Assembly (NCBI GenBank): GCA_964387845.1
Contig: CAYLXA010000009.1
Location: 42,098 to 106,097 of the forward strand
DNA length: 64,000 nucleotides
Reading direction: 5' to 3'
DNA from: an uncultured bacterium
GTDB taxonomy: Bacteria > Omnitrophota > Omnitrophia > Omnitrophales > Abzuiibacteriaceae
Positions 1 through 64,000 of the stretch are shown here, piece after piece (the first letter of the stretch is position 1; every line of letters begins with the position of its first letter). The position numbers and the translations under genes were made by a program. The notes beneath the pieces are model-generated. The model was not told the origin of the DNA. It searched no databases and saw nothing but the letters and a program-made list of their open reading frames with translations.

Positions 1-3000
1 CGTTCAGATAATCGCGTGCAAGCTTAAAATATTCGTTCTTAAAGCCCTGAAACCGCTCAAGCCAATCTGTTTGCTCAGGATCTATTTTTGAAAGCGCAAG
101 TTCGGTGGTTCTTTCCGCGTGATCAACAAGCTGAGTAATCAACGCTCGCATATCTTCAAGACTATAGGCCGTTGCGGTCTTTGAAGCTTTACTGTGTCCG
201 GCATTAGTATCTTGCGTTCCGGATTTGATTCGCCTAATTATCACAGCCGCCGCCAATCCAAGAACTCCGATAACACCGACGGCTACCTGCCCAAAACTAA
301 TCTCCGAAAAATAACCCTCAAAAGTTTCTTTCAAGCCGACGGACCGGACAATTGGCCCAAAAGCAAAAACCAGGACGCCGGCGGCAACAAACGCGCTTAT
401 CGCGAGCCACTTCGTCCGGCCGGTTAAGCTTTCAAGCGAATCCGTCCTTAATTCCGAGCGGCTACCGTAGTCGGGCCGGCTGTAAAATTGGCTCCCTTTT
501 TGATGGACCGTAAATCCAATCGAATGAATGAGTTGAACCGCTTCGCGCCGGTTAATGGCATATCCGAGATTGCTTGCTAATAAAATCACCTTATCAACAG
601 TGACTCGGCGAATATTTTTCAATTCATCTAAAACCTTTATGAAAAGATCATTCGAATTTTTCTGAGCACGTAATTCGGAGCGCGATAATTGCTCAACCGT
701 TTCCCGAACAAATTGCGGAACTTCGCCGGTTGCACGCAACAGTTCTTTTCCAACTAACGTCCGGCGATGAAAATCAGATATCGGACGGTCACTGATGGCA
801 TCAGTAAGAGCTTTAAAAAGGTTCGGATCATTTTGTTTAAGAACCTCTAAAGATTGCGCATCAACTTGCTGACGCAATTCCGAACGGTTCAGAACGGCAT
901 TGAGGACATCACGTAAATCGGAAACGGCTTGGTCGAGATTTTCGAAGTCAATTTCTTGATCAGACCCGGCGATTTTCAATTTGGAGCCGTTCACTTCACC
1001 CTTCAGTCCGATATGCCTCAAGTTGGCTTCGACCGTCCGAGCCGTCACTTCGGGATTAAAACTCGCCACTGGCGCCAAAAATTCTTTGTCACCCGCTCTC
1101 ACCTGAATTTTCCACTCCGAACCGAAGCCGGAAATCAATTCTACTTGCAATTCCGAACGTACGGATTCATTGGCCGCTTTGACAATACCCGTAAATTCAT
1201 CGGCTTTGAGACTGGCGCCGCCGATTAAGCCACCGTCAATGTTCTTCTTTGCGACCAGCGAAGCCGCATTCTTTGGATTCATACTGCCGCCGTATTGAAT
1301 ACGCAATTTGGAAGCAACATCTTCGCCGTAAATGGAGAGAACTAGAGCGCGAATATAACGCTGGACCTCATCAGCCTGTTCGGGTGTTGCGGTTTTCCCA
1401 GTTCCGATGGCCCACACCGGCTCATAGGCAATTACGACATTCGCCATTTGTTCGGCCGTTACATCTTTCAAACCTTCGAGGATTTGTTTTTCAATCACGC
1501 CAAATGTTTTGAACGCTTCACGCTCTTCCAGTAATTCACCAATCGCCAAAATCGGCTTTAAACCATTTTTGAGCGCGATTTTGACTTTGTCGTTGACGAC
1601 CGGATCAGACTCAGTCAGCCGATGATCAGCCGCTTTCTTTAAATTTCCGTGACGCCTTTCTGAGTGGCCGATAATGACATATTGAACACCCAAATCTTTT
1701 AACTGAGCATAGGATATCTGGCTCGTTTGAGCGCCCGGTTCTTCAGCAGACAGATCTTGAGCACCCAACGTAAGCTGCTTGCTACCCGGATAGATTGTGG
1801 TTTCTCTTAATCTTTTTATTTCTCTGACAACTTCATCAATATGAACAAAAGAAGGTGCGATAATAATTTCCGGGTCATTTTCCAATTGAGTATTTCCGAG
1901 GCTTACGACAATTTGCTCTGTCAAAACTTGAGCACTTATTTTATCGTTCACTGCCATCTTCCAATTGCCGCCGATGATTGGGGTGCGCTTCGCATTTTCC
2001 GCCCGCGCAAGCGCTTCGGAATCGATTTTAAGTTTTTCAATTGCTCTCTGCGCCTGAAATGAATTCCAATCATTCATGATTTCATCAAACTTTTGACGAA
2101 GCTTGGGATGCAGCCGCTCATACCGAGTCTTACCGTGAACAACCCCCTTCTCTTCAAACAGCCATTGCCGCCAACGGATTGCTTCTTTGGTAAACCACTC
2201 TAAATCCTGCTCGCTGACATCAAGCAACTTAGCTAGCGCCTCGTCCGTCATGTCAAGGCCTTCTCTACGAAACCCGTCAACTGTCGGCGTAAAACCAATT
2301 AGCATGGGCCATTTCTTAGCGTTTTTGGTTCCTCTCGGATCTTTTACGCGCTCTGATGACCATATATCACGCCGCACATTTTCCCTGAAACCGGGAAATT
2401 CCGGTTTTCCATCCGGGCCTTCTTTGAAAACGTTGTGAGTGATAAAAATAACCTCTTTCGGCTGATTCTCGAAAAATTCAAACATGTTGTTTGTGTGCGC
2501 AATTTCGTCTCCCGCTTCAAAATCACCGTTCGCAAATGGACTGGGGGTCAATGCGCCCACCGTTCCGGCTGCCGCAGCCGTCGCGGCGCTGATCATCATC
2601 AAACCATACAGAATACCAGTGGCAGTATCCGGTGCCTGTCTTAAGAAAAATCCGCCTTTCGGAAGTTTAACGCCCCATTCAACCACTTGGAAAGAAACCG
2701 GCTTGCCCCAATTTTCCGGCAAGAAATCTTTTGCATTATCCGGAATGGATACCGTAAAACGGCTGTTCGGATGTGCCCATTGAAGCGCAGCCGCATAAAT
2801 TTTCATCAGTGATTCAGCAACGTCTTCATTGATATGCGGAGAAAGTTTAATCAACCGCGATTTAGCTTCTTTTTTGTTGATTTTTTCGAGATCAAACTCC
2901 TCCAAAATCGCACGAATCGTATCGGATTTGTCCGAAAGCCAGAATTTTTCCAAATCCTTCACAGGAACAGCCTTGAGCGCAATGTCAATCCGTTTCGGGT

Positions 3001-6000
3001 CGGTCGATGACATTCCGTTCCAAACATACCAGTTTGGCTGGCCGATCGGTTTTGGCTTTCCGTCCTCTTCCAATCCTTCCCACCATTGTTCGACAACCGT
3101 GTCTGTTTCGGGGTCTAATCGGTAAGCACCGTTCGTAAAAATCGTTTTGCTGCCGGGCCCAATCATTTTCATGATGCGCGGATTGCTCTTATTGTTGGTC
3201 CCGACCAAAACGCCAAATGAACCCAGTTCGGGACTTTCTGCTTTTGGCCATCCATCTTCCGAAATCAACTCAGCCATATTAAGATCTCTAATAGGCGTAA
3301 TATAAGTTGGGTCTATGGGCTGCCCGCCTTCATCAAACAATTTGATGCCTGCCTGACCTTGAATCCAAGCAATGTCATCTCCATGAAATTCCACTTCCCA
3401 GTCTTCTTTCAAAGCATCGGGCACTTCAACAAACGCAGAATTGGTTTTTCCGACCGCGCTCGGGTAAGCGCCGAGAATACCGATCCGCTCGCCGGTCTTT
3501 TTGTTTATTAACACTTTGATCAGCATGTGTTCGGCAAGAAAATTCTTTTTCCGGAGCGCATCGTAGTTGGCTTGGCGAAGCGCTTCAAACTTCTTGCCGA
3601 AAAGCGCATTGCCGCCATATTCGGAGCCATAAGACAAAATTAACGCTTCATGCGCAACAAGAGCAAAGTAGCGGTTATCAATGGGATTTTCCTTTCGTTC
3701 GCGCTCAGCAGCTAACTTGTCCAGATCACCCGTCACATGAATGCCGCGCTCAAAAACGTATCCTTCTTTGATGGCATCCAGTGCTAATTTTCCGATTGCG
3801 ATTTTTCCTACTCGAGCCATTTTAATCATGTTGAGAGCAACGTAACGGCTATCGGTCAGCTGAATGCCGACCCGCCTTACTCCAGAATCAGGATCCGACA
3901 TCAAGTATGCAATTTTGTACATCTTCTTGCCCTTGTAGCCATCAGCCTTCATTAAATCTAAAATGGTTTGTTTCTTGCCCTCAGGGCCATCCGCCATCGC
4001 CCAATTATTGGAAGGGCCTTTGTCGTTGGAATCGTTGGTAAGCACCATCGTGCGGTTCGCTGTTCTCGCAACATCCTTCGGATGGGAGTGAGCGACATAT
4101 CTTCCGTCATTTGTTTTAAAATAGCGTCGGGATGTTTTCCCCCACTCAACTTGTTCTTCCTGGAGGCGATCTTCATCGGAAACGTCAACCCATTCCGATT
4201 CTCCCGCCCCGACAAGCTCGTGGGCATAATCAACAAATTCATGAACCGACTGAGGAACTCCTTTGAAATCATCCTCGCTTAAGTTAATCCGCAGTTCGCT
4301 GCGAGAAAGTGAAGGAATTTCACGGTCGCGGTACAAATCCAAAACATCAGACGGTTCCAATCCAAATCTTGTTATAAGAGCTGAGGCAAGCGTTCCGGGA
4401 TTCGCTTGGAGATGTTCTCTCGCTTCATTAAGCGCTCTTTCGCGCATTTCAGCTTCATATGCAGCAGTATCGCTTCCGCGGCCTCTTTGCGCATGACGAA
4501 CGGCTCTGAGTTCGCTGCGAGTCGTTAGAAGCTGATCGATAACTTCAATGGCGCTTGCAACCGTTTGAATTTTTTCAGCTTCTTCATCTGGAATTCTAAT
4601 ATCAAAGTCACCCTCTAGTGACACAACGAATTCGACAGTTTTCAACGAATCCCAATTCTCTATTAAATCTTCAAATCGAACATCATCATCAATGGGAATA
4701 TCTGATTCCAAACCGCTGATCTCTCTAAGTCGCCAAATAACTTGCCGCTGAATGTCACCGATGCTGAATATGCTTGCGCCGGCTGTGTCACCAGTGCGAA
4801 GTTCGCTCTGTTTAGCAGCGAGAGCATTGCTCGGCTCTGTGCTTTTTGCCCGCCGAAGAGAGAGACCATGCCTGTCAAGCGCGGCTGTGATTTCTTGAAT
4901 ATTCTCGACTGAAAAACGGGCTTGCCTGAGATCAGTCGCACTCATTTGGGTTAAGACGTTGACAGTCGTAACACCCTTAGTTCTTAACAGGCCAGCGAGT
5001 TTGACGGGCAAGTTTAATTGTGAAAAACGGATGCTTTGCGCAGCATTACCCCGAAGCTCCGAACGCGCAGCGGCTTTGATTGCTTCTTCCAAGAGCGCAA
5101 TGTGCTCATTGATAACGATAAACTCTGTGACTTGGAAATCCTGATCCTCCGGACTGAGCGTGGCTAAATTTTCATGCAGATAACTGACCAATTCGGCAAA
5201 CTTTGATCTCATAACTTGAAGCATTTCCTTCAGCTCTTCGGCGGAAAACCGGCTCAAATACTCTTTGTAAACGGCTTTCCGGTCAGAGGATTCAACCTGC
5301 GATTGCAACTGCGCAATCCGCATCTCTACGTTCCGGGCCAGATCTGCTGCAAAAGATTCCGGAGAAATCGGCTTATTTTCAAAAAGCACGGCTTCCATAA
5401 GCCCGCTCGGGCCTTCTTTTGTTTCCACCGTTCTTGCGTCGGCTACGACCTGATTAGAGTCCGCATGCTCAAAACCTCTCAACTGGATACCGTTCCGGAG
5501 ACTGACGCCGATCCATCCTCCACGGCCGCCGAAACGCTCGCCCATTCCATGATCCGTAAAAATAATGCGGGAATCAATTTGAAAACCACCGATCACGCCA
5601 CGTTTCTCGGCGTTTAGTTTGGTCGCAAATTCATGAAACGGCAGATGCCCGGTAAACAAACGGTTAAACCCGTTGACTTCGGCGAGTCTTCGCGCACCAA
5701 ACTTATTAATAGCAGCCGCCACATTCGGCACCTTGATCTCGGTCGTGTTGTCGGCATACCAGCTGTTTACCAAATTGAGCGCTTCATAAATTTCAGAAAG
5801 CGACGGGTTTGAGCGTATGTCGTGCGCAACAATGTCCAAGCCTTGCCAAACCGATGGATGTTCTTTGCTGCCTTTTCCTCGATATTCAATTTTCTTAGAC
5901 GGATCATCCTTGCTTCTGTAGGTGAAATAAAATTCACCTGTGCTCATATCCACCGGCAAAAACGCGTGCATATAAATATTTTGATAAGCATCGCGCTGAT

Positions 6001-8644
6001 ACAAATGAAACTGCGCTTTGAAGAAATCAGCTATCCGGTCAAGCGTGTGATTTTCCAGATAATTGGCCGAAGTCACTTTTGCATCGGCCGGCAAGTTTTC
6101 GTTCAACTCCTTGATAACCGCTGTTCCCCAATCCTTATGAAAGACCCAGTCTTTCGCCCACCACTCAGGTGACGTATAATTCTGCCGGTTAACGGCTTCG
6201 AAAACTTTTGCCCAGTCTTTGCCTTGATCCACAAACGATTGGAGGTCTTTCTTGAGTTCGGGAAGAATATCTTCGGACATCATCCGGATCGCTTCACGCC
6301 ACGCCTGATTGGACGGCAGTTCGGCATCAAAACCCTGTGCGGCTTCAATCGATGCATAAGCCTTTCTAAATCCCTCCAGCAAATCTTCCCACCAAGGAAT
6401 CGAAACGGTGCCGACCGCGCGGACTCCGGTGTAAATATCCACCAAATACCAGCCTCGGAACTGATTCCACAACCGGATCTGCTCGGCATCACCGTTCAAA
6501 CTGGCAGAAACTTGCTTGTAAAGACCGCTGCCTTCAACGCGTTTCTTGCGTTTTTCATCAGTCCATGCGCCGTTTACTTTAATTTCAAGCGTATCCCAAA
6601 ATTCTTTTTGCCGCTTTTCATGGAATGCGGTAAATTCGGCGAGATGTTCCGCCCACCAAGTTTTGGCTTTGGCTTCGGGAATTTCTTTCCGGTAGCGATC
6701 CGCGATTGCTTCTGCTTCCCGGTCACCGTAAAAATTATAGCCTTCGTAAAACGGCAAATGAAAACCCTGCAAATTCATAAACATCCACAAATCATGATTG
6801 CCCGGTATAAAATCAGACAGTCCCGCATCAATTAATTCTGCGGAACGATGAAATACTTTCACGCCGTAAGGCCCGCGATCCATCAAGTCGCCTAAATTAT
6901 GAAGGTAAATCTTGCGCCGCAAATCATCAAACGTAACGCCATGAACGGCCAGCTGGTCTTGAAGTGCTTTACTCGGATTCAATTTAAAATCTGCCGGCAG
7001 TTGACCGGGCAAAACTTGGTTGATTGCATCAACGATCAGTGCGTCAAAACGATCGATCGTTCCGTGCTGGTCCGAAATAACGGCTGCAATGGGAAAATCT
7101 CTAGACTCAGAGGGTTTTTCAAGCTGCGAAAGCAAATCAAATAGCAATTTCAGCTCTTCCTTTGACGGCATATAGGTAGTCGAAATGCTCTTTTCTCTCA
7201 GTTCAGAGCGGTTCTTACGATTGCTATTGTGATTGAGCTCAAAAATACGGTTAATCTGACCTGCAACAGTTGCAAGGTCACCCCGCACAGGCCATTCAAC
7301 TGTGACTAAGGTATCCCGCTCAACAATCGGTATCACGGAACTTCTGTGATCGCCTTTGGCTAATTGCACGCCACGAGTTTGAAGAAGAGTTGCTAAAGCG
7401 TGAGCGCTGCCTGCAAACTGAGGTTCCGCATGACCTGGAAAATAAACATCCAATCCTTTCTTCTTTAAATTTGGGATCACATGAACAGGCGCTTGATTAG
7501 AATTGACAAGGCCTGAAACTGGTAATTGGGCCGGTTGGCCAAGAGGATCGCTTGAATCGGCAACAGGAAAAGGACTATTCTTTGTCTTGGTTCTCTTTCT
7601 AAGAGCTTTTTTGCGGGTACTTGCTTCAGTTACCGAACCGCTGGCATGAGCAATCACTTCTCCGTCTTTATTATCGCGCTTCACTTCATAAAAAAGTACA
7701 TTTGTGCCGCCTTTCCGCTCAACTTTAAAAATTTGTAAGCGTATTTTCTTTCCGCGAGGGCCCACAAAGAAAACTGAATTGCGGGCGCGATTTAAGGCAT
7801 AATCTGAAATTGCTGCTTTAATTTCATCTATATACTGCTTCATATCGGCGGTTTCGGTGATGAAACTCGAAAATTCAAATTTCTGGATCTGCTGAGCCCG
7901 GAGTTCAGAGCGCAGCAGTTCGAGTGCGGTTTCGCGGGCTTCGGAATCTTGAGGGAACGCAAAGATGGTGTCCACCAAAACCAATTTTCCGTTTCGGATA
8001 TATTCCATAAAAGAATCGATTTCAGGCCCCGGGAAAACTCCTTTGTGTTCACCCAGCATGTGAGAAATGTGATGATTTTGCGAAACGCTCTTTAAACCAT
8101 TGCCGACATGGAAATGCAGGTGAGGCACTGTGATTTCCGTTCCACCGTTTACTCTCACTTTCAATTCTTTGCCCTGCCTAAAAAAGACCGTTAATTTTTT
8201 ACTGTCATCTGAACTTTCTATCGATGACACGCCGCCATACAAGAGAGCATCTTTTAATTGGGCAGACAAATTATCCGGCCATGCAATGGTTTGGAAATCA
8301 AGGGATCCCTCGCCCAAAAGGCCTCTGTGTTCTGTGGTTTGCGCTACAATTAATAGAAGCTTGTCCGCCAATTGATCCGCAAGCTGTTGGCTGAGCGGTT
8401 TATTCGGATCCAAAAACAACACTTGCCTGAGTTCGGAACGGAAAGAAGGATATTGCGCTGCAAATTGACGGAGTTCGGAAGCGGCTTTGCTCCAGACAGC
8501 GGCTAAATTGCGGACCGTAGTGGTGCCGGGCTTCGGCGCGAAAATAGTTTGCGGAATGTCCGAATATGCCATCGAACTCGAGAATGTAAACGCAAACAAT
8601 GTTGCGCTTGCCGTCATTTTGATCAGTTTATGTTTTAGATTCAT
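1..8644 (-). CDS. Giant mosaic polyprotein A. N-terminus at 8644; the gene continues past the left window edge, so it is C-terminally truncated by the window. At least 2880 codons in the window.
   Basis: ATG at 8642..8644 (revcomp of cat). Hand translation gives MNLKHKLIKMTASATLFAFTFSSSMAYSDIPQ... and stays stop-free down to position 2 in frame 2 mod 3. It contains, in order: a HIT-like HLHFHVGNG motif (~8100..8150), FBPase class 3, an RpoA alpha-CTD-like segment, an ACP-like segment, GTP-PEPCK, TIM and two C-terminal TM helices. It is absent from the ORF track only because no stop lies within the window. No obvious SD upstream. Confidence 0.75.
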   Translation of the reverse strand, partial: MNLKHKLIKMTASATLFAFTFSSSMAYSDIPQTIFAPKPGTTTVRNLAAVWSKAASELRQFAAQYPSFRSELRQVLFLDPNKPLSQQLADQLADKLLLIVAQTTEHRGLLGEGSLDFQTIAWPDNLSAQLKDALLYGGVSSIESSDDSKKLTVFFRQGKELKVRVNGGTEITVPHLHFHVGNGLKSVSQNHHISHMLGEHKGVFPGPEIDSFMEYIRNGKLVLVDTIFAFPQDSEARETALELLRSELRAQQIQKFEFSSFITETADMKQYIDEIKAAISDYALNRARNSVFFVGPRGKKIRLQIFKVERKGGTNVLFYEVKRDNKDGEVIAHASGSVTEASTRKKALRKRTKTKNSPFPVADSSDPLGQPAQLPVSGLVNSNQAPVHVIPNLKKKGLDVYFPGHAEPQFAGSAHALATLLQTRGVQLAKGDHRSSVIPIVERDTLVTVEWPVRGDLATVAGQINRIFELNHNSNRKNRSELREKSISTTYMPSKEELKLLFDLLSQLEKPSESRDFPIAAVISDQHGTIDRFDALIVDAINQVLPGQLPADFKLNPSKALQDQLAVHGVTFDDLRRKIYLHNLGDLMDRGPYGVKVFHRSAELIDAGLSDFIPGNHDLWMFMNLQGFHLPFYEGYNFYGDREAEAIADRYRKEIPEAKAKTWWAEHLAEFTAFHEKRQKEFWDTLEIKVNGAWTDEKRKKRVEGSGLYKQVSASLNGDAEQIRLWNQFRGWYLVDIYTGVRAVGTVSIPWWEDLLEGFRKAYASIEAAQGFDAELPSNQAWREAIRMMSEDILPELKKDLQSFVDQGKDWAKVFEAVNRQNYTSPEWWAKDWVFHKDWGTAVIKELNENLPADAKVTSANYLENHTLDRIADFFKAQFHLYQRDAYQNIYMHAFLPVDMSTGEFYFTYRSKDDPSKKIEYRGKGSKEHPSVWQGLDIVAHDIRSNPSLSEIYEALNLVNSWYADNTTEIKVPNVAAAINKFGARRLAEVNGFNRLFTGHLPFHEFATKLNAEKRGVIGGFQIDSRIIFTDHGMGERFGGRGGWIGVSLRNGIQLRGFEHADSNQVVADARTVETKEGPSGLMEAVLFENKPISPESFAADLARNVEMRIAQLQSQVESSDRKAVYKEYLSRFSAEELKEMLQVMRSKFAELVSYLHENLATLSPEDQDFQVTEFIVINEHIALLEEAIKAAARSELRGNAAQSIRFSQLNLPVKLAGLLRTKGVTTVNVLTQMSATDLRQARFSVENIQEITAALDRHGLSLRRAKSTEPSNALAAKQSELRTGDTAGASIFSIGDIQRQVIWRLREISGLESDIPIDDDVRFEDLIENWDSLKTVEFVVSLEGDFDIRIPDEEAEKIQTVASAIEVIDQLLTTRSELRAVRHAQRGRGSDTAAYEAEMRERALNEAREHLQANPGTLASALITRFGLEPSDVLDLYRDREIPSLSRSELRINLSEDDFKGVPQSVHEFVDYAHELVGAGESEWVDVSDEDRLQEEQVEWGKTSRRYFKTNDGRYVAHSHPKDVARTANRTMVLTNDSNDKGPSNNWAMADGPEGKKQTILDLMKADGYKGKKMYKIAYLMSDPDSGVRRVGIQLTDSRYVALNMIKMARVGKIAIGKLALDAIKEGYVFERGIHVTGDLDKLAAERERKENPIDNRYFALVAHEALILSYGSEYGGNALFGKKFEALRQANYDALRKKNFLAEHMLIKVLINKKTGERIGILGAYPSAVGKTNSAFVEVPDALKEDWEVEFHGDDIAWIQGQAGIKLFDEGGQPIDPTYITPIRDLNMAELISEDGWPKAESPELGSFGVLVGTNNKSNPRIMKMIGPGSKTIFTNGAYRLDPETDTVVEQWWEGLEEDGKPKPIGQPNWYVWNGMSSTDPKRIDIALKAVPVKDLEKFWLSDKSDTIRAILEEFDLEKINKKEAKSRLIKLSPHINEDVAESLMKIYAAALQWAHPNSRFTVSIPDNAKDFLPENWGKPVSFQVVEWGVKLPKGGFFLRQAPDTATGILYGLMMISAATAAAAGTVGALTPSPFANGDFEAGDEIAHTNNMFEFFENQPKEVIFITHNVFKEGPDGKPEFPGFRENVRRDIWSSERVKDPRGTKNAKKWPMLIGFTPTVDGFRREGLDMTDEALAKLLDVSEQDLEWFTKEAIRWRQWLFEEKGVVHGKTRYERLHPKLRQKFDEIMNDWNSFQAQRAIEKLKIDSEALARAENAKRTPIIGGNWKMAVNDKISAQVLTEQIVVSLGNTQLENDPEIIIAPSFVHIDEVVREIKRLRETTIYPGSKQLTLGAQDLSAEEPGAQTSQISYAQLKDLGVQYVIIGHSERRHGNLKKAADHRLTESDPVVNDKVKIALKNGLKPILAIGELLEEREAFKTFGVIEKQILEGLKDVTAEQMANVVIAYEPVWAIGTGKTATPEQADEVQRYIRALVLSIYGEDVASKLRIQYGGSMNPKNAASLVAKKNIDGGLIGGASLKADEFTGIVKAANESVRSELQVELISGFGSEWKIQVRAGDKEFLAPVASFNPEVTARTVEANLRHIGLKGEVNGSKLKIAGSDQEIDFENLDQAVSDLRDVLNAVLNRSELRQQVDAQSLEVLKQNDPNLFKALTDAISDRPISDFHRRTLVGKELLRATGEVPQFVRETVEQLSRSELRAQKNSNDLFIKVLDELKNIRRVTVDKVILLASNLGYAINRREAVQLIHSIGFTVHQKGSQFYSRPDYGSRSELRTDSLESLTGRTKWLAISAFVAAGVLVFAFGPIVRSVGLKETFEGYFSEISFGQVAVGVIGVLGLAAAVIIRRIKSGTQDTNAGHSKASKTATAYSLEDMRALITQLVDHAERTTELALSKIDPEQTDWLERFQGFKNEYFKLARDYLN
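190..430 (-). other. Two predicted TM helices near the window-edge end of A.
   Basis: WLAISAFVAAGVLVFAFGPIV and VAVGVIGVLGLAAAVIIRRI, preceded by SRSELRTDSLESL. Confidence 0.5.
1200..1995 (-). other. Module in A: triosephosphate isomerase.
   Basis: PIIGGNWKM (~1951..1981), IIGHSERRH, AYEPVWAIGTGKTATPEQA, YGGSMNPKNA (~1262..1295). Catalytic Asn, Lys, His and Glu are all present. It directly follows PEPCK with no RSELR between them. Confidence 0.9.
2030..4288 (-). other. Module in A: GTP-dependent phosphoenolpyruvate carboxykinase (PckG type).
   Basis: VARTANRTMV, then LAEHMLIKVLINKKTGERIGILGAYPSAVGKTNSAF (kinase-1a, compare FPSACGKTN), then EFHGDDIAWIQ. Preceded by RSELR at 4289..4303. Confidence 0.8.
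4289..4303 (-). other. Example RSELR site in A (codons CGC AGC GAA CTG CGG).
   Basis: Plus strand ccgcagttcgctgcg. Reads ...LSRSELRINLSEDDF at the N-terminal boundary of the PEPCK module. In frame with A. Confidence 0.9.
4540..4700 (-). other. Module in A: acyl-carrier-protein-like domain retaining the DSL phosphopantetheine-attachment serine.
   Basis: ENWDSLKTVEFVVSLEGDFDIRIPDEEAEKIQTVASAIEVIDQL. The ACP signature DSL-x-x-VE-L-x-x-x-L-E-x-x-F-x-x-x-I-P-D-E-E-A is present. Flanked by KQSELR and TTRSELRA. Confidence 0.6.
4870..5045 (-). other. Module in A: RNA polymerase alpha C-terminal-domain-like helix-hairpin-helix segment.
   Basis: FSQLNLPVKLAGLLRTKGVTTVNVLTQMSATDLRQARFSVENIQEI resembles the RpoA alpha-CTD (LELSVRSANCLK...GKKSLTEI). 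Confidence 0.35.
5070..7190 (-). other. Module in A: fructose-1,6-bisphosphatase class 3 (Bacillus Fbp type, metallophosphoesterase fold).
   Basis: Motif LGDLMDRGPYGVKVFHRS encoded at ~6868..6895. FIPGNHDLWM follows downstream. The block is about 700 aa. It is bounded by RSELR at ~7196..7210 and ~5052..5066. Confidence 0.55.
8534..8644 (-). other. Leader of A: Sec-like signal or leader peptide of the conserved family.
   Basis: MNLKHKLIKMTASATLFAFTFSSSMAYSDIPQTIFAPKPG. First RSELR at about residue 67. Confidence 0.6.
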
Positions 8645-8651
8645 GTTTTTA

Positions 8652-8679
8652 GTGATAAGTGATAAGTGGTAAGTGGTAA
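8652..8679. repeat. Four tandem heptamers in the 75-nt B-A spacer: GTGATAA x2 then GTGGTAA x2.
   Basis: Read directly: agtgataagtgataagtggtaagtggtaag. On the coding (minus) strand this is CTTACCA CTTACCA CTTATCA CTTATCA, ending about 10 nt before the A start codon. Confidence 0.7.
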
Positions 8680-8702
8680 GCAACTTAAAACTTACCACTT
8701 AC
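8669..8702. promoter_or_regulatory. Perfect 12-bp inverted repeat with a 10-nt loop between the stop of B and the start of A.
   Basis: gtaagtggtaag (8669..8680), loop caacttaaaa, cttaccacttac (8691..8702). The left arm overlaps the heptamer repeats. No U-tract follows on the transcribed strand, so it is not a canonical intrinsic terminator. Candidate RNA processing or regulatory stem, or a protein-binding site. Confidence 0.5.
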
Positions 8703-8719
8703 AACTTACGACTGAAAAA

Positions 8720-11700
8720 TTATGCGGCGCGTCCCAATTCGATAACGTTACGCAGTTCCGATCTTAAAGATTCCGCAATTTGAGTAATACCAAACGCATT
8801 AAACAGCGCCTTGACTTCGCTCCGGCCGACAAACACAACCTGGCTTGCATAACGCTTCAGCATTTCGGCTGACGTTGCGTCACTTTCTTTTGAAGCAATA
8901 ATCCTGAAATTCTTGGCACCCAATTTCCGAAGTTCTGAGCGCGCCTGGACAAAATCGCGCACAATCACAAAACGGTCTGAGTTTACATCCGCAACCGCGG
9001 CCCGGATGGCAGTTTCGCTGGCCGGATCAAGCGCAATGAGCGCCGTCGGATCGGCCGAATTTTCTAAAATAATCGGAAGTGCCCATAAGACATCCTCGTT
9101 AATCAAAAGGCCTTCTGTCAGAATATTACCGACTGCCGTTTCTACCCCGGCGCCATCCTGCGCTTGCATAAATTGACGAATAGCCGCTTGAGGTTCTTCG
9201 CTTCTGGCACGGGTAAACTGCCTCCGGCCTGCTTCGACTTTCGACCTGATTCGTGTAGTAACGGCCGCAGGAATCATGGAAGACGTATCCAACGAGCCAA
9301 ACGCAGAGCTCGGAACCGCAGTCAATCGCAATTCGGAACGGGTTTCTAGTTTCTGGTTTTTAGTTTCTGGTTTAAACTTGAAACTAGAGACTAGAGACTC
9401 GAAACTTTCCTTACGAAGTTCGGAACGCTCCCACTTACCCGTCTTTTCAAGCGTGTGCTGCGCAATTGCGTGTTTAGTTTTAATCAAAGACCCCAGATCA
9501 AGTTCAAATTCCGAGGATGTTAAAGTATATGTACCCGAAAATCTGGATTCCAATTGCTGGATGCGTTCCACACCTTCCAGAACCAAAACTTTTGTCATGT
9601 TCAACTCATGATCAGACTCAAGCCCGAGATCGATACGATGTTGGGTCCTGTTCACAACCGAAACGAGCGCAAAAAGTTCCGAGACCATTTTCCCGAATGC
9701 CATAAAATAGCTTTGAACTTCTTTCTTATCTTTGATGGCTTTTGCCCCGCCAAACCGTTCTATAAGTTCTTCGCCGGCTTTTTCAACCAAAGCTGATACG
9801 TTCCAAACAATTTCCCAATCACGCTGAAGCGGGCTTTGGTCTGGAATATCCCAGCCTTGCAGCAATTGACGGTCATTCTTCCACACTTCGGATTCCAAAT
9901 ATTTGAGTACTGCCGATGCAATAACTTGCGAATAAAGGATTTCGTTGGCGCCTTCAAAAATCGTCATGACACGGGCATCCGCGTTAGTACGGGCGACTTG
10001 TTCTTCAACCATAAACCCCGCACCGCCGCGTTTTTGAACCGCTTCACTTGTCAAACGGTTCAGAACTTCAGAGCCCCACGCCTTCGCGGCCGCAGCTTCA
10101 AGCCCTGGTTCCGAAACACCGCCGTCAAAAAGCCCGGCAAGTGAATAGCTAATAGACTCAAGCGCATAGGTGTAAGCTTCCATGTCTGCAAGCGTTTCCT
10201 GAACAGCGCCCCAATTGGCGAGCTGCGTACCGAACTGTATGCGATCGAGCGACCAATTTAAAGTTCTTTCAAATGAACGGAGCGCACCGCCCCAGCTTCC
10301 GGCTGCGACCGCCGTACGGCCGTGATTGAGAATCGACATGCCGATTTTATTGCCGTCGCCCAATTGGCCGAGCAGATTTTCCTTCGGAACCCGCGCATTC
10401 TCAAAATACACATCGACAGTCGAAGAACCATGAAGGCCTGTTTTGTGGTAGTCGTTGCTGATGGAAATGCCTGCCGCTTTGCGTGCTTCCGCATCCTTCG
10501 GGAATTCAACGATAAAAACACTCTTCTCGTTTTCACCCGTCATCGCAAATACGGTCATAACATCCATGAAACGGCCGTTTGTGATAAACGCTTTTTCGCC
10601 GGTAATTTCATAATATTCTTCACCGGTCGTTTCATCTTTTTTGAGCACCGCTTTGGTTTTTAAAACCGATTCGCGGTTTAAGCTGTCTGAACCATGCGCG
10701 GTTTCAGTCAACGCGTAAGCGCCGATCCATTCGCCGGTCGCGAGTTTCGGCAGGTATTTCCGCTTTTGCTCTTCCGTTCCGAATTTCACAATCGGAAGCG
10801 TTCCGACACCGCCATGAACACGAACGAGAGAACCCACCGACGGATTGGCATACCACGCCCACATATCTGCCAGTGTTTTCATAATCTTTTTAAAGTTACC
10901 CAACCCGTATTCTTCGGGAACTGACATCCCCAGCAAGCCCATCTCTCCTGCCTGCTGCAAAATGCCGCCCTCATCCTCAACTTTGACAGCGCCGCTATCA
11001 ATCTTTTCGCTTTCCGGAACTACCGCGCTCTTGAAGAAATTGGCGATGGCTTCATTCATTGCATTGATTTCTTCATGACCGGCTAAATCTTCCGGAAATT
11101 GGAGCGTGCCTTCGGCCACATTGGCGCGGCCATATAATAGGAAGTCGCCGGATTTGGGCGTACTTTCGGCGAACGGTACCAGTGCTTTGTCATTCTGAGG
11201 CGCAGCCGAAGAATCTACGGTCGCAGATCCTTCGCTTCGCTCAGGATGACCGGCTTTTGCCTTATCCAGCACTTCTTTTTCCATCGCGTCCATCATTTTC
11301 AGAGTATTGGCGCGAATCAAAAGAGCGTTCTTTCCATTTCTTGCTTCATAGGTAACGGGAACGATCGGCAGTTTTTCACGCGTGACTTTGATTTTGTCAG
11401 CCGCGGGAGCAATAGCGCGGATGTCAATCACATCGCCCGGACGGATGTCATGATTAAAAGTAGCCAGATCGGTCACATTCAGTAATAAATGACCGGGAAC
11501 GGCTTCCGCAGACATCCTGGCCGCTACTTTAATGGCTGCAAGAATATTGACAAGTCTCGGATCATTTGATTCGGCAATCACGCGTACACCGTTTAAATAA
11601 TCTTCCGTAACCGTTACGGGCAGAAGGCCGCTTGGATTTTCATTTGGCGATGACGTATCTTGAATGCGCGGGCTTGCAGAATCCGTAAAATCAAATATCT

Positions 11701-14700
11701 GCTTCGGAACCGAGTGCGTAACACCTTCGGACCATGCTTTCGCCTGATCGATTTGCGATTGGGTGGGTTTTGAAGTATCAAACGGCTCATCGGCCGGCCT
11801 TGGTTTCATATTGGCAACGATTTCTGCCACCACTTTCCCGGCTTGATTAACAACCTGAATCTTAAGCTTCGCGACACCATTTTCAGAAATACTCATGACT
11901 TCAATGACCGGTGTCACCACGTCGTCAAACTTCACGGGCGCTGAAAATTTCGCGCTTTCTACCGCACTACCCTCATCTCCGATGCCGATAAATTCATACC
12001 CGGGAAGCTCTTCCTGGGTACGGGCCAGCATTTTAGAAACCGTCAGAAGGCCATGTGCAACCAGAGCGCCAAATTTGGACGCTTCCGCGTATTCTTTGAG
12101 TAAGTGGAAACGGTTGCGGTCGCCTTCCATCGCGAAGAGCTTGACCATCCACTCGCGCATGATGAGCGCGTTTCCGAGAATCTTTTGGCCGGCGAATACG
12201 GAAAGTGCGTTGTCTTCCGTGCGCCCGCCCGGACGAAGCGCTAAGAGAAGTCTTGCGCGCGCCTTTGTATAACGTTCTTTTTCGGCATCGCTCAAAATAC
12301 CAGGGATTTTCATGGCGCGTTCCATTTGGATAAACGGAATGCGCGCGGATGCAGCATCTACGATTTCAAGCGCGCCGGTCACAGGATCTTTGAATCCGAC
12401 AGCGCCAAGGCCGCGGTCTTGATCGGCAACGGCGTAATCTTCGATAATCGCAAGGTCGCGCTCAGTTGAATTTTTCCATGCTTTTGCGTACGCTTTGCCT
12501 GCATCACTCTTGAGCCATTCTTTCTTGGCCGCTTTGCCTTCATCCGTTTTCAAATCAAATACGGGCATCGCACCGACCGTGTCAGCGCGTTGCGGACTTA
12601 ACAAGCGGTTAATTTCATCAACTTGATTGGCTTTTGCAAGTTTTCCCGCGAAACCCCAATTGGCGACACGTTCCGCTTCATGCGTTACATTTTCATCACT
12701 GGAATAACCATCGATCGCGTCAATTTTTGAATATGCCGTGAGAGCAATAAAAAGTGAGTGATAATAATTGTAACCTTTCGTTGTCGGATCATCTTCGGCC
12801 TCATGAACCATATTGCCGTCAACATCGAAAATCGCGGCCGTTACGCGGCGGCTTGCACGCATGATCGACTGCGTTTCCGATTCCTCAAACGCTTTTGCTT
12901 CTTGTTCGATTGCTTTAGGGTCAGAAATGCTGGGTACAATTTCAAACCCTCCCGTGAGATATCTATAATCATGTTCAAACTCGGATAGAAAACCGTCTAG
13001 CTCTCTGATTTCTTTTGCGCTTTGTGTGTTTTGATACACAATACCCGTAACAGAGGATGCGAGTAATGGGAAAATATCCTTAAGTCTTTCGATTGGATTT
13101 GACTTTGCAGTTTCAATCCAAATAATCTTTTCATGCTCGCCCGGGAGCATCAATCCTTTAAGTTTTTGTATAGAATCCTTGAAAGAACCGTCTTGCCACC
13201 ACGAAGCCGGTGCGGAATCTAAATTGATTTTAATGATATCCACCTCTGAATTCATTGCTATATTCAGAGCTTCATAGTCATTTACGTCAACACTTACGAT
13301 TGATCGTGCCAATGACACATCGCGCGGAACGAAAACTTCGGGCGGAAGAATAGGTTTGCTGTCGGCTGCCATTTTGTCGAGATCGGCCAGTTTTATTTCG
13401 GGTAATTTTTTGTAATCGTAATCCGGATGTTTGCGGATGACAGGCGGAAATTGGCCGAGGAATGGCTCCATTCCCTTCAAGTGGTTCGGATGAACGCTCC
13501 ACTTGCGGTTCATGCCGATCTTGATAAATTTTTCTGTGTCGGCTGTGGTCGGCTCAACTTCAAGTTTCACGGTAATGCCGGTACCCGCCACTTTTCCGGT
13601 TTTCTTTCCGGCTTCAACGATATCGAGAAGCGCTGAGCGCATATACGGAAATTGCTCATGCTGCACTTCATTTTTCCCGCCGGTTGCGGCTGTGTAATCG
13701 ACAACGCCAAGCTGTGCTTCTTCTACTTCCGGAGCAATTGATAAAATCCGTTCAGCGTTCAAAGTTCCACCGGGAAGTTCTGTGAGCACAAATACTTTAT
13801 GAGAACCGACGGGGCGATTGACCCATTTTTGTTCGGCTTGAATCGCACGCAGATTGGCAACACCGATGCGGACATCCTGCGGGCCGAATACTTTCGGCAT
13901 ATAAATACCGTCTATCAAATGGCCGATGGCGCGAAAGACGATGGAATAATCGCCCGCGGACCACTTGGTGCGCAGATTGTTCGGACGGAACAGAATCATC
14001 TGGTCTTTATGGAAACGCGCTTCTTCTTTTAATTGGAAGCGTCTATTGCGCGAATGAATCTCATCCCACTCGTCTTCTGACAACATCCGGTAATCCGAAT
14101 AATCGGTGTCATCCGGCAATTCAATAAGATATTTGTCGATCGGATCTTTTTCGTCGTTGGCCTGCAAAGCATTCTTTTTCAAGAAATCAACTTGCTCTTG
14201 TGTGAGGATTTCGCCCTTGAACAACCGGATCAATTGAATAATGACTTCGCGCGCAAGTTCCTTGCGGATGGTCGCTACGGCATCTTCCAAATCTAATAGA
14301 AGAATCGGAGCCTTCATGCCCGCGCGTGCGGCAAGCAGCATGAATTTCCAGTTATCACCGGGAAACACATTTTGGACTTCGCGCGGCATGTACTCCCACG
14401 CAAGCCGTGCGGCAACTTCATCAGCCGTCACATCGGGCTTCACGACTTTCCAATTTTCGTAGCGGTAATTGAGGTCTTTCACGGCATGAGCTTCATCATT
14501 GCCAAACGCGGTCAGCAATGCCTGCTTCACTTCCGCATTCGTCACTTGATCGAGCGAAATTTCCCGTAATTCGGAACGGACAAACTCGGGGCTCTTCAAT
14601 CTGTTGCGGTCAATTTTTTGAAGGTCGCCGGTGCGCGGAAGTGAGGAAACAATCACAACCCGCTTGGGTGCTTTGTAATGGGCAAGTGACTCTTTTGCGG

Positions 14701-25876: not shown

Positions 25877-26049
25877 AGTTTTTCTTTTCCGTTATCTGAC
25901 TTTTTTAAAGTTTTGACTTAAAGAGCCAAAGCTCCCCCGAGTAATAAGACTGGGATTTATTGTCGGGTGGATTTATTTGTAGAACCGCAACTGAAAGTCA
26001 TGGGTATTACGGAAGTTCTTCCTTTCAATCAGATTTTTACGACAAGCAC

Positions 26050-26078
26050 AAGGTAACATACAGCTTAAACCAAGTCAA
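26050..26078 (-). promoter_or_regulatory. Candidate promoter for B in the 271-nt C-B spacer.
   Basis: On the minus strand: TTGACT (plus strand 26073..26078), 17 nt, then TGt-TACCTT (extended -10-like, plus strand 26050..26058). Weak -10. Confidence 0.2.
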
Positions 26079-26147
26079 ATTTTTTTTAAGATATTAGGTA
26101 GTTTTTTACATCTATAAGGGCTTATTTACCGAATATATAGTATAAAA

Positions 26148-49076: not shown

Positions 49077-49251
49077 TATTTGTTGGACATCCCTTTCAAA
49101 ACTGAGATTCTCTTGCCAGACTTTTCCAAAGTTTTAAGCTTCAGAGCCAGAAAAATACAATGGCTGCTTTTGATAATGGATTGATCTTTTCTGCGCCTGA
49201 CTGTGAGTTGGATCATTTTTTCTGCCGAATTTCCTGCCGAAAATTAAGAAA

Positions 49252-49280
49252 ATATTATCATTAGAATACCTTTATTTCAA
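49252..49280 (-). promoter_or_regulatory. Candidate sigma70-like promoter for D in the E-D spacer.
   Basis: On the minus strand: TTGAAA (plus strand 49275..49280), a 17-nt spacer, then TAATAT (plus strand 49252..49257). About 170 nt upstream of the D start codon. The region is AT-rich, so a chance match is possible. Confidence 0.3.
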
Positions 49281-49330
49281 GTATATAAGGTATTTTTTTT
49301 AATATGATAAGATAACTTTGATACCTTTTA

Positions 49331-49345
49331 GTTCTATTATAGAAC
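49331..49345. promoter_or_regulatory. Perfect 7-1-7 palindrome gttctat-t-atagaac, about 20 nt downstream of the E stop.
   Basis: Read directly. Adjacent small hairpin agctt-atca-aagct at 49346..49359. With only a 1-nt centre it cannot form an RNA hairpin loop, so it is a candidate dimeric-regulator operator. Confidence 0.4.
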
Positions 49346-49364
49346 AGCTTATCAAAGCTCTTAA

Positions 49365-63677: not shown

Positions 63678-64000
63678 AGCCTTAGCGCCTCTTTCAGCAA
63701 ATTTTTGCCATTCATAAAAGCGCTGAGGCAGTCATGATTACCACATAGGAACGTTTTGAAACTCTTTATCAAAATCATGAACCCGGCTTCGCTCCCTTTG
63801 ATCGCGCAATTGCGGTTAAACCGCTGAGCGAAAGAGTAACATGCGGCTTTAGCTGAGTCAATAGATAAAGAAGTATATTAGGTTGTAATGTTTTTATATT
63901 GGGTACTAGTTGGTACTAATTGGTAAGATTAATAGATGGGGCGACAGCAAAAGTTCAATAAGCAAGTGCACCACTTGGAGTTAAAATAGTCGGGTATTAA

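What the first reader, a model, noticed from the sequence alone, without database searches (positions are those of the whole stretch)
1..8644. Polyprotein A strings gluconeogenic enzymes together with an ACP-like and an RNA-polymerase alpha-CTD-like domain
Within one frame, in order: a HIT-like histidine triad (HLHFHV, ~8100..8150), FBPase class 3, an alpha-CTD-like HhH, an ACP with the DSL serine intact, GTP-PEPCK and TIM, then TM helices. TIM follows PEPCK with no RSELR between them, which is a rare unpunctuated junction. Mixing catalytic enzymes with a carrier protein and a DNA-binding or RNAP-interaction domain in a leader-bearing chain has no precedent I know of.
Basis: partly seen in the sequence, partly recalled or inferred. 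Interest (0 to 1): 0.55.

Follow-up and report, generated by a model that had tools for sequence, protein, structure and literature searches.

The report
Punctuated multi-enzyme polyprotein of an Omnitrophota bacterium
This is the first 2,881 residues of one of five back-to-back giant bacterial genes that string complete enzymes together behind an export-type leader, separated by the peptide RSELR, which could be the unknown cutting site of the giant proteins of Omnitrophota.

Summary
The open frame is real. It runs on the minus strand from the ATG at 8644 off the left edge of the window, 2,881 codons with no stop.

- **Well supported:** GTP-PEPCK, a TIM with its catalytic residues intact, and an ACP with its DSL serine.
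- **Weak but consistent:** the alpha-CTD-like domain, which scores below Pfam's cut-off.
- **Not established:** the "class 3 FBPase". It is a metallophosphoesterase only distantly related to that family, and its free-standing homologues carry their own signal peptides.
- **Unsupported:** the HIT call rests on the HLHFHV motif alone.

The PEPCK-TIM junction does lack RSELR, but unpunctuated junctions are not rare here. At least five other modules in the window hold two or more enzymes.

The broader picture matters more. A, B, C, E and F share a homologous Sec-type leader, and B, C, E and F share a C-terminal domain of about 135 residues. They carry 51 RSELR motifs where 0.04 are expected. The codons vary freely, no motif lies inside a Pfam match, and in relatives the motif abuts native protein termini.

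Relatives are Omnitrophota, including Ca. Abzuiibacterium. Multi-enzyme giant ORFs in this phylum are already published, but I found no description of the punctuation, leader and C-terminal domain. My best reading is a polyprotein cut at RSELR. Cleavage and cellular location are inferred, not shown.

The parts
8561..8644 (-). Start codon (ATG 8644-8642) and a 28-residue Sec-type leader, MNLKHKLIKMTASATLFAFTFSSSMAYS, with a likely signal-peptidase I site AYS|D.
   Evidence: The leader is homologous to those of B, C, E and F (BLASTP E 1e-4 to 1e-8) and to leaders in relatives.
8426..8482 (-). First punctuation pair, ASELR (8468-8482) and RSELR (8426-8440), enclosing the 9-residue peptide QFAAQYPSF.
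7913..8425 (-). Module m2, 171 aa, an orphan. It contains HLHFHV (8105-8122). The HIT assignment is unsupported.
7211..7897 (-). Module m3, 229 aa, an orphan with no family and no homologues found.
5066..7195 (-). Module m4, 710 aa: a calcineurin-like metallophosphoesterase with metal-ligand motifs intact (SDQHG, GDLMDRG at 6872-6892, GNHD at 6791-6802, H410, GH517, D548). It is a distant relative of class 3 FBPase, and its substrate is unknown.
4811..5050 (-). Module m5, 80 aa: a helix-hairpin-helix domain resembling the RNA polymerase alpha C-terminal domain.
4520..4795 (-). Module m6, 92 aa: an acyl carrier protein with its DSL serine at 4643-4651.
4304..4504 (-). Module m7, 67 aa, an orphan.
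2054..4288 (-). Divergent GTP-PEPCK, the first part of module m8. It keeps the P-loop GAYPSAVGKTN (3440-3472), YGGNALFGKK, GDDIAW and HPNSRF. GGRR is replaced by GVKL, and there are two insertions.
1979..2053 (-). PEPCK-TIM linker of 25 aa without RSELR. RAENAKR (1985-2005) aligns with the RSELR that follows PEPCK in relative P0011, so it may be a decayed site.
1160..1978 (-). Triosephosphate isomerase, the second part of module m8, with catalytic K, H and E motifs intact. It is followed by RSELQ (1145-1159).
461..1144 (-). Three small orphan modules: m9 (887-1144), m10 (683-871) and m11 (461-667). Each is bounded by RSELR. m11 has a faint S4-like hit.
2..445 (-). Module m12, with a hairpin of two TM-like helices (347-409 and 236-295). 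The chain continues beyond the window.

Best explanation
Region 1-8644 encodes the first 2,881 residues of a modular polyprotein of an Omnitrophota bacterium related to Ca. Abzuiibacterium. It is one of five tandem same-strand genes of this kind in the window: F, E, C, B and A. A sixth gene, D, lies between E and C and is not a polyprotein.

**Architecture.** Each chain starts with a homologous Sec-type leader. It then carries cassettes that are complete, formerly independent proteins. The cassettes are joined by short linkers bearing the pentapeptide RSELR. B, C, E and F end in a shared C-terminal domain of about 135 residues; A's end is off-window.

**Proposed mechanism.** RSELR is most likely the recognition site of a dedicated trans-acting endopeptidase that cuts after the second Arg. 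Cutting would release about a dozen products from A:
- two orphan proteins;
- an exported-type metallophosphatase;
- an alpha-CTD-like domain;
- an ACP;
- a bifunctional PEPCK-TIM enzyme;
- several small proteins;
- a membrane-anchored remainder.

The grouping of modules looks like operon-style co-expression of shuffled cassettes rather than a designed gluconeogenic assembly line.

**Shown:** the ORFs, the motif statistics, the module identities, conservation of boundaries across lineages, and cassette shuffling.
**Inferred:** the cleavage itself, the protease, and where the products end up. By the leader, the predicted location is outside the cytoplasmic membrane, which is hard to reconcile with PEPCK and ACP.
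For: **The motif is not chance and is selected as a peptide**
- RSELR occurs 51 times in the polyprotein frames against 0.036 expected, and 0 times in the other four frames.
- 58 of the 59 motif copies (51 RSELR plus 8 one-residue variants) use different 15-mers, with all synonymous codon families in use. Selection is therefore on the peptide, not the DNA or RNA.
- 0 of 51 sites lie inside a Pfam-matched stretch, although such stretches cover 30% of residues (P about 1e-8).

**The motif abuts native protein termini**
- TIM's profile ends 5 residues before RSELQ, and PEPCK_N profile position 1 lies 16 residues after RSELR.
- In relative P0113, CsrA profile position 1, the native Met, directly follows RSEAR.
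- In L002, PanB starts 2 residues after RSEMR. The m4 homologue there is flanked by RSESR and RSEIR just as m4 is flanked by RSELR in A.

**Related lineages keep the architecture and vary the motif**
- Variants are [SAQ]ELR in Ca. Abzuiibacterium, R[SA]ELR in L043 and RSExR in UBA2337.

**Cassettes shuffle at the motif**
- Window polyprotein C equals two separate L043 polyproteins, with the MeaB-MCM cassette inserted between them. The breakpoints fall at the punctuation.

**Shared ends**
- Leaders and C-terminal domains are shared.

**The question is open in the literature**
- West-Roberts et al. state that cleavage points of these giant proteins are unknown.
Against: - No cleavage product, proteomic evidence or protease was observed.
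- No peptidase family was detected in the window at E<=0.001. The only lead is ORF D, with a weak Tiki/ChaN hit at E 0.0016.
- A Sec leader followed by about 2,700 residues without a TM helix predicts export. PEPCK (needs GTP), ACP (needs phosphopantetheinylation) and, in relative P0113, CsrA are cytoplasmic functions.
- Many enzyme-enzyme junctions lack the motif, so cleavage would not separate every enzyme.
- Several sites sit in helix-like contexts rather than obviously flexible linkers.
Confidence: 0.5

Rival explanations
1. The chain is an uncleaved scaffold. It stays intact as a membrane-tethered 'metabolon on a string', and RSELR is a structural linker or a docking motif for a partner protein rather than a cleavage site.
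For: - TM hairpins are interspersed in all the chains.
- Published work reads Omnitrophota giants as membrane-anchored assemblies.
- Many enzyme pairs are already fused without the motif.
- Some motifs lie in helical contexts.
Against: - A pure linker needs no invariant pentapeptide kept by purifying selection across all synonymous codons.
- Pairs of motifs enclose peptides of 5-30 residues that cannot be domains.
- The motif directly abuts the retained initiator Met of CsrA in P0113.
- Lineage-specific motif variants resemble co-evolution of a protease and its site.
Confidence: 0.25
2. The chains are secreted cargo. The N-terminal Sec leader plus the conserved C-terminal domain mark them for export, formally like type IX secretion cargo. 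The enzymes would then act in the periplasm or cell coat, or inside a host or prey cell. This is compatible with cleavage and concerns location only.
For: - All five chains have a conserved leader with an AYS|D-type site.
- B, C, E and F share a conserved C-terminal domain ending in small residues.
- The free-standing m4 homologues are themselves signal-peptide proteins.
- The literature proposes an extracellular coat and a predatory lifestyle.
Against: - PEPCK, TIM, ACP, methylmalonyl-CoA mutase and acyl-CoA enzymes need nucleotides and CoA that are not available outside a cell.
- No secretion-system genes lie in the window.
- The fold and role of the C-terminal domain are unknown.
Confidence: 0.3
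3. One reading: A is a purpose-built gluconeogenic assembly of FBPase, PEPCK and TIM, with carrier and regulatory domains.
For: - PEPCK and TIM are fused without punctuation and TIM is catalytically intact.
- m4 shares overall architecture with class 3 FBPase.
Against: - m4 fails the FBPase_2 model and its family is exported.
- PEPCK and TIM do not catalyse consecutive steps.
- In syntenic L043 they lie in different polyproteins with enoyl-CoA hydratase, SDR and AMP-binding enzymes, and the TIM-like module there has lost its catalytic residues.
- In P0011, PEPCK is followed by RSELR and not by TIM.
Confidence: 0.12
4. Artefact: the long frames result from misassembly, an unusual genetic code or decayed pseudogenes.
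For: None beyond the unusual length.
Against: - About 20,500 codons contain no in-frame TAA, TAG or TGA, while 2,374 such triplets occur across all three frames of the coding strand.
- Catalytic motifs are intact.
- E and F are recovered identically from an NCBI contig, and F also from an independent Logan assembly.
- Orthologous polyproteins occur in several MAGs.
Confidence: 0.02

Closest known systems
Multi-enzyme giant ORFs of Omnitrophota ('multi-enzyme metabolic clusters', Nielsen & Lui 2026, bioRxiv 10.64898/2026.06.07.730766; 'Archaeovorins', West-Roberts et al. 2023, bioRxiv 10.1101/2023.11.21.568195)
   Same: - Same phylum.
- Many unrelated metabolic Pfam families tile one polypeptide, with a signal peptide and/or TM helices.
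- Post-translational cleavage has been suspected.
   Different: - The chains here are 2.6-5.7 kaa, not 10-147 kaa.
- They have a shared homologous leader, a shared C-terminal domain and a regular pentapeptide punctuation. Those papers mention none of these: 'motif' and 'cleav' give no relevant passage, and cleavage points are stated to be unknown.
Viral polyproteins processed by 3C/NIa/Mpro-type proteases
   Same: Complete functional proteins are joined in one ORF, a short conserved site sits at each junction, and the site varies with lineage.
   Different: This is a cellular genome carrying central-metabolism enzymes. No protease domain was recognised in the chains, each chain has an N-terminal Sec leader, and cleavage is not demonstrated.
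Gingipain/HagA polyproteins of Porphyromonas gingivalis (from my own knowledge, not tested here)
   Same: Bacterial polyproteins with an N-terminal signal peptide and a conserved C-terminal domain, with processing after Arg or Lys at domain borders.
   Different: Those carry protease and adhesin domains and use the Bacteroidota type IX system. Here the cargo is cytoplasmic-type enzymes and the C-terminal domain is unrelated (no Pfam match).
Mitochondrial tandem protein Arg5,6, cut internally by the processing peptidase MPP (PMC8734313, abstract seen)
   Same: Two metabolic enzymes are made as one leader-bearing precursor and separated by an internal cut after translocation.
   Different: That is a eukaryotic organelle case with two enzymes and a presequence-like internal site, not about a dozen modules with a fixed pentapeptide.
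Class 3 fructose-1,6-bisphosphatase (Bacillus Fbp/YydE, Pfam FBPase_2 PF06874)
   Same: - Length of about 650-700 aa.
- A metallophosphoesterase core with large helical insertions.
- It is the only full-length structural match (9a7j_A, E 1e-6).
- 10 of 21 m4-family members give sub-threshold FBPase_2 hits.
   Different: - The module itself gives no FBPase_2 hit.
- Sequence identity is 12% and the TM-score only 0.33-0.35.
- Free-standing family members are secreted, whereas Fbp is cytosolic (from my own knowledge).
- The m4 family is therefore separate and unnamed.
Bifunctional PGK-TIM of Thermotoga (NCBIfam NF010569) and other PEPCK fusions
   Same: - TIM or PEPCK is fused to another central-carbon enzyme.
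- A's TIM hits the PGK/TIM model over the TIM part only.
- PEPCK-aminotransferase and PEPCK-GAPDH fusions are common among the hits.
   Different: None of the 112 hits combines PEPCK with TIM, and the two do not catalyse consecutive steps.

Membership tests
GTP-dependent PEPCK | Pfam PEPCK_N and PEPCK_GTP score above their gathering cut-offs | tested here: met
   146.6 and 156 bits against a cut-off of 23.8.
GTP-dependent PEPCK | Equivalog-level score and full catalytic/nucleotide motif set | tested here: inconclusive
   NCBIfam NF003253 scores 328.5 against a cut-off of 504. The P-loop, YGGNAL.GKK, GDDIAW and HPNSRF are kept. GGRR is replaced by GVKL, SExTAAA by SAATAAA, and WPGF by FPGF, and there are two insertions.
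Triosephosphate isomerase | Family model above cut-off, and catalytic Lys, His and Glu present | tested here: met
   PF00121 scores 258 bits. TIGR00419 scores 149.3 against 130.6. GGNWKM, GHSERR and YEPVWAIGTG are present.
Acyl carrier protein | PP-binding fold match and a conserved DSL serine | tested here: met
   PF00550 scores 24.7 against 20.8 on the isolated module. There are 100 PDB ACP hits, best 1.4e-9, with DSL aligned to the AcpP DSL. TIGR00517 scores 48.4, below its equivalog cut-off of 70.45.
Acyl carrier protein | Phosphopantetheinylation and use by a synthase | not testable with these tools
   No PPTase or fatty-acid synthesis genes lie in the window.
Class 3 FBPase (PF06874) | Match to the FBPase_2 model | tested here: not met
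   The module gives no hit at E<=1. 10 of 21 family members hit below threshold, best E 0.0025.
Class 3 FBPase (PF06874) | Same overall fold | tested here: inconclusive
Class 3 FBPase (PF06874) | Metallophosphoesterase metal ligands | tested here: met
   D42, H44, D103, N133, H134, H410 and H517 are invariant in the 21-sequence family alignment. These define the superfamily, not FBPase.
RNA polymerase alpha C-terminal domain (PF03118) | Match above the gathering cut-off | tested here: not met
   The score is 21.5 bits against 23.8. All weak evidence points the same way: rpoA models at E 0.001-0.004, and 18 of 18 PDB hits are RpoA C-terminal domains.
HIT (histidine triad) proteins | HxHxHxx motif within a HIT fold | tested here: inconclusive
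   The motif HLHFHV is present. There is no Pfam hit or homologue, PDB gives E=4.6, and the model is unusable at pLDDT 37.
Omnitrophota multi-enzyme giant proteins | Omnitrophota lineage, with many distinct enzyme Pfams on one chain bearing a signal peptide or TM helices | tested here: met
   Relatives are Ca. Abzuiibacterium crystallinum and 'Ca. Omnitrophica' MAGs. Pfam tiling is, and the leader and TM helices.
Omnitrophota multi-enzyme giant proteins | Length of at least 10,000 aa, as catalogued in the 2026 preprint | tested here: not met
   The complete chains are 2,595-5,718 aa. A is at least 2,881 aa and incomplete.
Proteolytically processed polyprotein | Conserved short site at junctions of complete proteins | tested here: met
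Proteolytically processed polyprotein | A cognate protease and observed cleavage products | not testable with these tools
   The only lead is ORF D (Tiki/ChaN, E 0.0016), which is 86% conserved in the syntenic relative.

The most novel reading that the evidence does not exclude
A clade of Omnitrophota makes much of its central metabolism as Sec-leader-bearing polyproteins. A dedicated protease, possibly the conserved Tiki-like ORF D, cuts them at a lineage-specific pentapeptide (RSELR here; RSExR and [SAQ]ELR elsewhere). That would be a virus-like expression strategy in a cellular organism. It would also supply the missing cleavage code for the giant proteins of this phylum.
Probability: 0.35. 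Interest if true: 0.85.

Novelty: new variant of a known kind. Interest (0 to 1): 0.62.

Why it matters
Giant multi-enzyme ORFs of Omnitrophota have been reported, but nobody knows whether they work as one chain or are cut. West-Roberts et al. state that unknown cleavage points blocked their structural analysis.

A pentapeptide that is selected at the peptide level, sits at native protein termini, varies by lineage and marks cassette-shuffling breakpoints gives a concrete, testable cleavage code. It also offers a way to split these proteins in silico.

The finding raises a cell-biology puzzle as well: GTP-, CoA- and B12-dependent enzymes sit behind an export leader. For polyprotein A itself, the result corrects the annotation:
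- PEPCK-TIM is a real bifunctional module.
- ACP is real.
- The 'FBPase' belongs to an unnamed family of exported metallophosphatases.
- The HIT call is unsupported.

Tried and rejected
**Source contig**
- Exact look-up of window protein E, with and without its stop codon, found no position on record, although the sequence is in the collection as P0142.
- A metagenome scan with A's last 381 residues found nothing, so the C-terminal continuation of A was not recovered.

**N-terminal region**
- A homologue search with A's first 478 residues returned nothing at E<=0.01.
- Single-sequence AlphaFold of m2 was unusable (pLDDT 37).

**Structure comparison**
- The afdb50 fold library was unavailable.

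**Literature**
- Searches for 'RSELR', for Omnitrophota with polyprotein or cleavage site, and for Abzuiibacterium found nothing relevant.

**Other searches**
- Rfam found nothing in the window.
- Adding whole proteins P0011 and P0113 to the C-terminal-domain alignment misaligned it. I used trimmed sequences instead.

**Hypotheses considered and rejected**
- A nucleotide-level role for the motif: rejected because the codons vary.
- A 2A-like ribosomal skip or self-cleavage: only five residues are conserved and the flanks are unrelated.
- Stop-codon reassignment: all three stops are avoided in frame, and TAA or TAG end the ORFs.
- The top PEPCK hits (P0001, P0004, P0008) are four-fold tandem PEPCKs lacking RSELR (one from a eukaryotic transcriptome set, one annotated Schistocerca, one an unnamed ENA metagenome contig), not relatives of this system.
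Full report
**What is in the sequence**

The window holds six minus-strand ORFs laid head to tail and almost nothing else:
- F, 49365-63677, 4,770 aa
- E, 41289-49076, 2,595 aa
- D, 39676-41250, 524 aa
- C, 26148-39689, 4,513 aa
- B, 8720-25876, 5,718 aa
- A, open from 8698 to the left edge of the window

From there, 2,881 codons run without a stop. All three stop triplets are common on the coding strand taken over all three frames, yet none occurs in frame. B, C, E and F end in TAA or TAG. Misassembly and a variant genetic code therefore do not explain the length.

**The RSELR punctuation**

- RSELR occurs 51 times in the polyprotein frames and never in the other four frames.
- From amino-acid composition, 0.036 occurrences are expected. 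RSELR is by far the commonest 5-mer.
- The 59 copies counted (51 RSELR plus 8 one-residue variants) use 58 different 15-nt sequences. These draw on both Ser codon families, both Leu families and both Arg families. The flanking residues are unrelated. Selection therefore acts on the peptide, not on DNA or RNA.
- None of the 51 sites lies within a Pfam-matched stretch, although such stretches cover 30% of the residues (P about 1e-8).

**Modules of A**

Cutting at the motif gives the following parts:

| Part | Size | Assessment |
|---|---|---|
| Leader | 28 aa | Sec-type signal peptide |
| Peptide between ASELR and RSELR | 9 aa | too short to be a domain |
| m2 | 171 aa | orphan; contains HLHFHV |
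| m3 | 229 aa | orphan |
| m4 | 710 aa | metallophosphoesterase |
| m5 | 80 aa | alpha-CTD-like |
| m6 | 92 aa | ACP |
| m7 | 67 aa | orphan |
| m8 | 1,043 aa | PEPCK + TIM |
| m9-m11 | 63-86 aa each | orphans |
| m12 | 148 aa to the window edge | two TM-like helices; continues off-window |

- **PEPCK and TIM** are unambiguous by Pfam (E 1e-42, 1e-45 and 9e-77).
- **TIM** keeps its catalytic Lys, His and Glu motifs.
- **PEPCK** is divergent. It scores below the NCBIfam equivalog cut-off (328 against 504). It has two insertions, and GGRR is replaced by GVKL. The P-loop, YGGNAL.GKK, GDDIAW and HPNSRF are kept.
- **ACP** is solid. There are 100 PDB hits, all ACPs, and its DSL aligns with the DSL of E. 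coli AcpP.
- **The alpha-CTD-like module** is below Pfam's cut-off (21.5 against 23.8 bits). Every weak hit is an RpoA C-terminal domain.
- **The HIT call** has no support beyond the six-residue motif.

**The 'class 3 FBPase'**

m4 matches only the generic Metallophos model, exactly at the cut-off. Its homologues form a distinct family with no curated name: four are annotated only 'hypothetical protein' and the rest carry no name at all. Most are free-standing proteins of about 670 aa, and the metallophosphoesterase ligands are invariant. Ten of 21 members give sub-threshold FBPase_2 hits, best E 0.0025.

Twelve of the 13 free-standing homologues inspected start with their own Sec signal peptide; the thirteenth, P0114, begins inside the catalytic core. 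One sits in an ordinary gene neighbourhood. I therefore read m4 as an exported-type metallophosphatase that is distantly akin to class 3 FBPase and has an unknown substrate.

**The unpunctuated junction**

PEPCK and TIM are joined by a 25-residue linker without RSELR. This is not exceptional. B has RSELR-bounded modules containing 3HCDH + ADH, 3HCDH + AMP-binding, and HpcH + MaoC + acyl-CoA dehydrogenase. C has MeaB + MCM + B12, and biotin carboxylase + carboxyltransferase.

In relative P0011, PEPCK is followed by RSELR. In the alignment, its EALQRSELRG falls on A's EALARAENAKR, which suggests a decayed site.

**A is one member of a system**

- A, B, C, E and F share a homologous leader...L.L.F[ST]FT.[ST].[AG]Y[ST]|[DE].
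- B, C, E and F share a C-terminal domain of about 135 residues ending in RAA, RSA or SRA.
- A profile of that domain, searched against 1.84 billion representative proteins, found only seven proteins:
  - the window's own C, E and F;
  - P0011;
  - P0144;
  - P0145, which is PIQ85548.1 of Ca. Abzuiibacterium crystallinum (Omnitrophota);
  - one probably spurious RTX protein.
- P0145, P0144 and the gene downstream of P0011 carry the same leader. P0145 and P0144 also carry [SAQT]ELR-type punctuation.

**Syntenic locus L043**

L043 comes from a 525-kb JGI contig. Its gene order is:
1. a PGK+PGM polyprotein
2. a D orthologue
3. bAvd
4. an MT36+ACC polyprotein
5. a MeaB-MCM polyprotein
6. an ECH+SDR+TIM-like polyprotein
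7. a polyprotein with AMP-binding and other enzymes plus PEPCK

The polyproteins read in full there have the same leader, R[SA]ELR punctuation and small-residue C-termini.

Window polyprotein C corresponds to two L043 polyproteins, with the MeaB-MCM cassette inserted between them. The breakpoints fall at the punctuation. The cassettes between motifs are thus the units of evolution, and the pathway composition of a chain is fluid. In L043, PEPCK and the TIM-like module are in different chains, and that TIM-like module has lost its catalytic residues.

**More distant lineages**

The m4 family is embedded in long ORFs in Omnitrophota- and Elusimicrobiota-labelled MAGs.
- In UBA2337 (L002), a 4,600-aa ORF has eight RSExR motifs. 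The m4 homologue is flanked by RSESR and RSEIR. PanB is flanked by RSEMR on both sides and starts 2 residues after the upstream motif.
- In P0113, CsrA's native Met directly follows RSEAR.
- Other MAGs show other recurrent peptides: ARLA seven times, and AAMT four times.

**Interpretation**

An invariant pentapeptide under peptide-level selection sits at native termini. It sometimes occurs in pairs enclosing peptides too short to fold. It varies between lineages and marks cassette boundaries. All of this is what a site for a trans-acting processing protease looks like, as in viral polyproteins.

Cleavage is not shown here, and no protease was identified. ORF D is the only lead:
- It is signal-peptide bearing.
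- It has a weak Tiki/ChaN hit (E 0.0016).
- It is 86% identical to its syntenic orthologue, whereas the aligned polyprotein cassettes are 43-49% identical.

The main unresolved difficulty is location. The leader predicts export of about 2,700 residues, yet PEPCK, ACP and the CoA- and B12-dependent enzymes of B and C are cytoplasmic-type.

**Relation to the literature**

Giant ORFs are a known hallmark of Omnitrophota (PMC10066038). West-Roberts et al. noted glycolytic enzymes in them, suspected cleavage, and said the cleavage points are unknown. Nielsen & Lui catalogued 'multi-enzyme metabolic clusters' in which 94% carry a signal peptide or TM helices. None of these papers mentions a punctuation motif, a shared leader or a shared C-terminal domain. 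Full-text searches for RSELR found nothing relevant.

**Verdict**

- The gluconeogenic reading is weak.
- The claim of no precedent is overstated.
- The chain belongs to a punctuated-polyprotein variant of a known Omnitrophota phenomenon. I found no prior description of that variant, and it makes the question of cleavage testable.

Noticed in passing
window 39676-41250 (-), ORF D: D is the only gene in the window that is not a polyprotein. It is 524 aa with its own signal peptide and a weak Tiki/ChaN-superfamily hit (E 0.0016). Its orthologue in syntenic L043 (393-1961) is 86% identical, while the aligned polyprotein cassettes there are 43-49% identical. D is a candidate processing peptidase or conserved partner.
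   Followed up: partly
window 8645-8719 (-), the gap between B and A: The 75-nt spacer between B's stop and A's start folds into a long near-perfect hairpin (dG -27.8 kcal/mol, z = -8.2). A has no promoter-like region of its own, so it is probably co-transcribed with B.
   Followed up: partly
window 25877-26147, 49077-49364 and 63678-64000 (-): The 270-320-nt regions upstream of B, E and F share an ACCTAATAT(A)CTT element. Those of B and F also share TTGACT-N15-ATGTTAC promoter-like boxes, while E has a looser TTGAAA/TAATAT pair. About 190 nt of untranslated leader follows in each. There is no Rfam match.
   Followed up: partly
window 8723-9172, 26151-26600, 41292-41741 and 49368-49817 (-): B, C, E and F end in a shared domain of about 135 residues with no Pfam match, terminating in RAA, RAA, RSA and SRA. 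In B and E, an RSELR lies just 5-9 residues before the C-terminus. Relatives end in QSA, MSA, GAA or RAA. The domain is very rare, with 7 hits among 1.84 billion representatives.
   Followed up: partly
L043 1-25757 (JGI 3300028648, 525-kb contig): This locus is syntenic with the window, but the same enzyme cassettes are partitioned differently among the polyproteins. Its TIM-like module has lost the catalytic Lys, His and Glu.
   Followed up: partly
L035, L032, L011, L002; P0113: Other Omnitrophota- and Elusimicrobiota-labelled MAGs carry long ORFs with different recurrent short peptides: ARLA seven and four times, AAMT four times, and RSExR eight and five times. This suggests lineage-specific punctuation codes. 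Chance was not rigorously excluded for the 4-mers.
   Followed up: partly
P0113 (Logan contig, 1,122 aa): The RNA-binding regulator CsrA is embedded in a leader-bearing polyprotein directly after RSEAR, next to an m4 homologue. This is another cytoplasmic function behind an export leader.
   Followed up: no
P0001, P0004, P0008: These proteins of about 2,400 aa consist of four tandem GTP-PEPCK copies. P0001 comes from a eukaryotic transcriptome set, P0008 is annotated as a Schistocerca gregaria protein, and P0004 is an unnamed protein on an ENA metagenome contig. They are unrelated to the RSELR system but unusual.
   Followed up: no
window 461-667 (-), module m11: This 69-residue module gives a faint S4 RNA-binding-domain hit (E 0.055). 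With the alpha-CTD-like module, it is the second nucleic-acid-binding-type small module in A.
   Followed up: no
window 26148-39689 (-), polyprotein C: C contains AprA-type N-terminal and MT2-like methyltransferase domains (PF23526, PF23525). They sit next to MeaB-MCM-B12 and an acetyl-CoA-carboxylase-like block.
   Followed up: no
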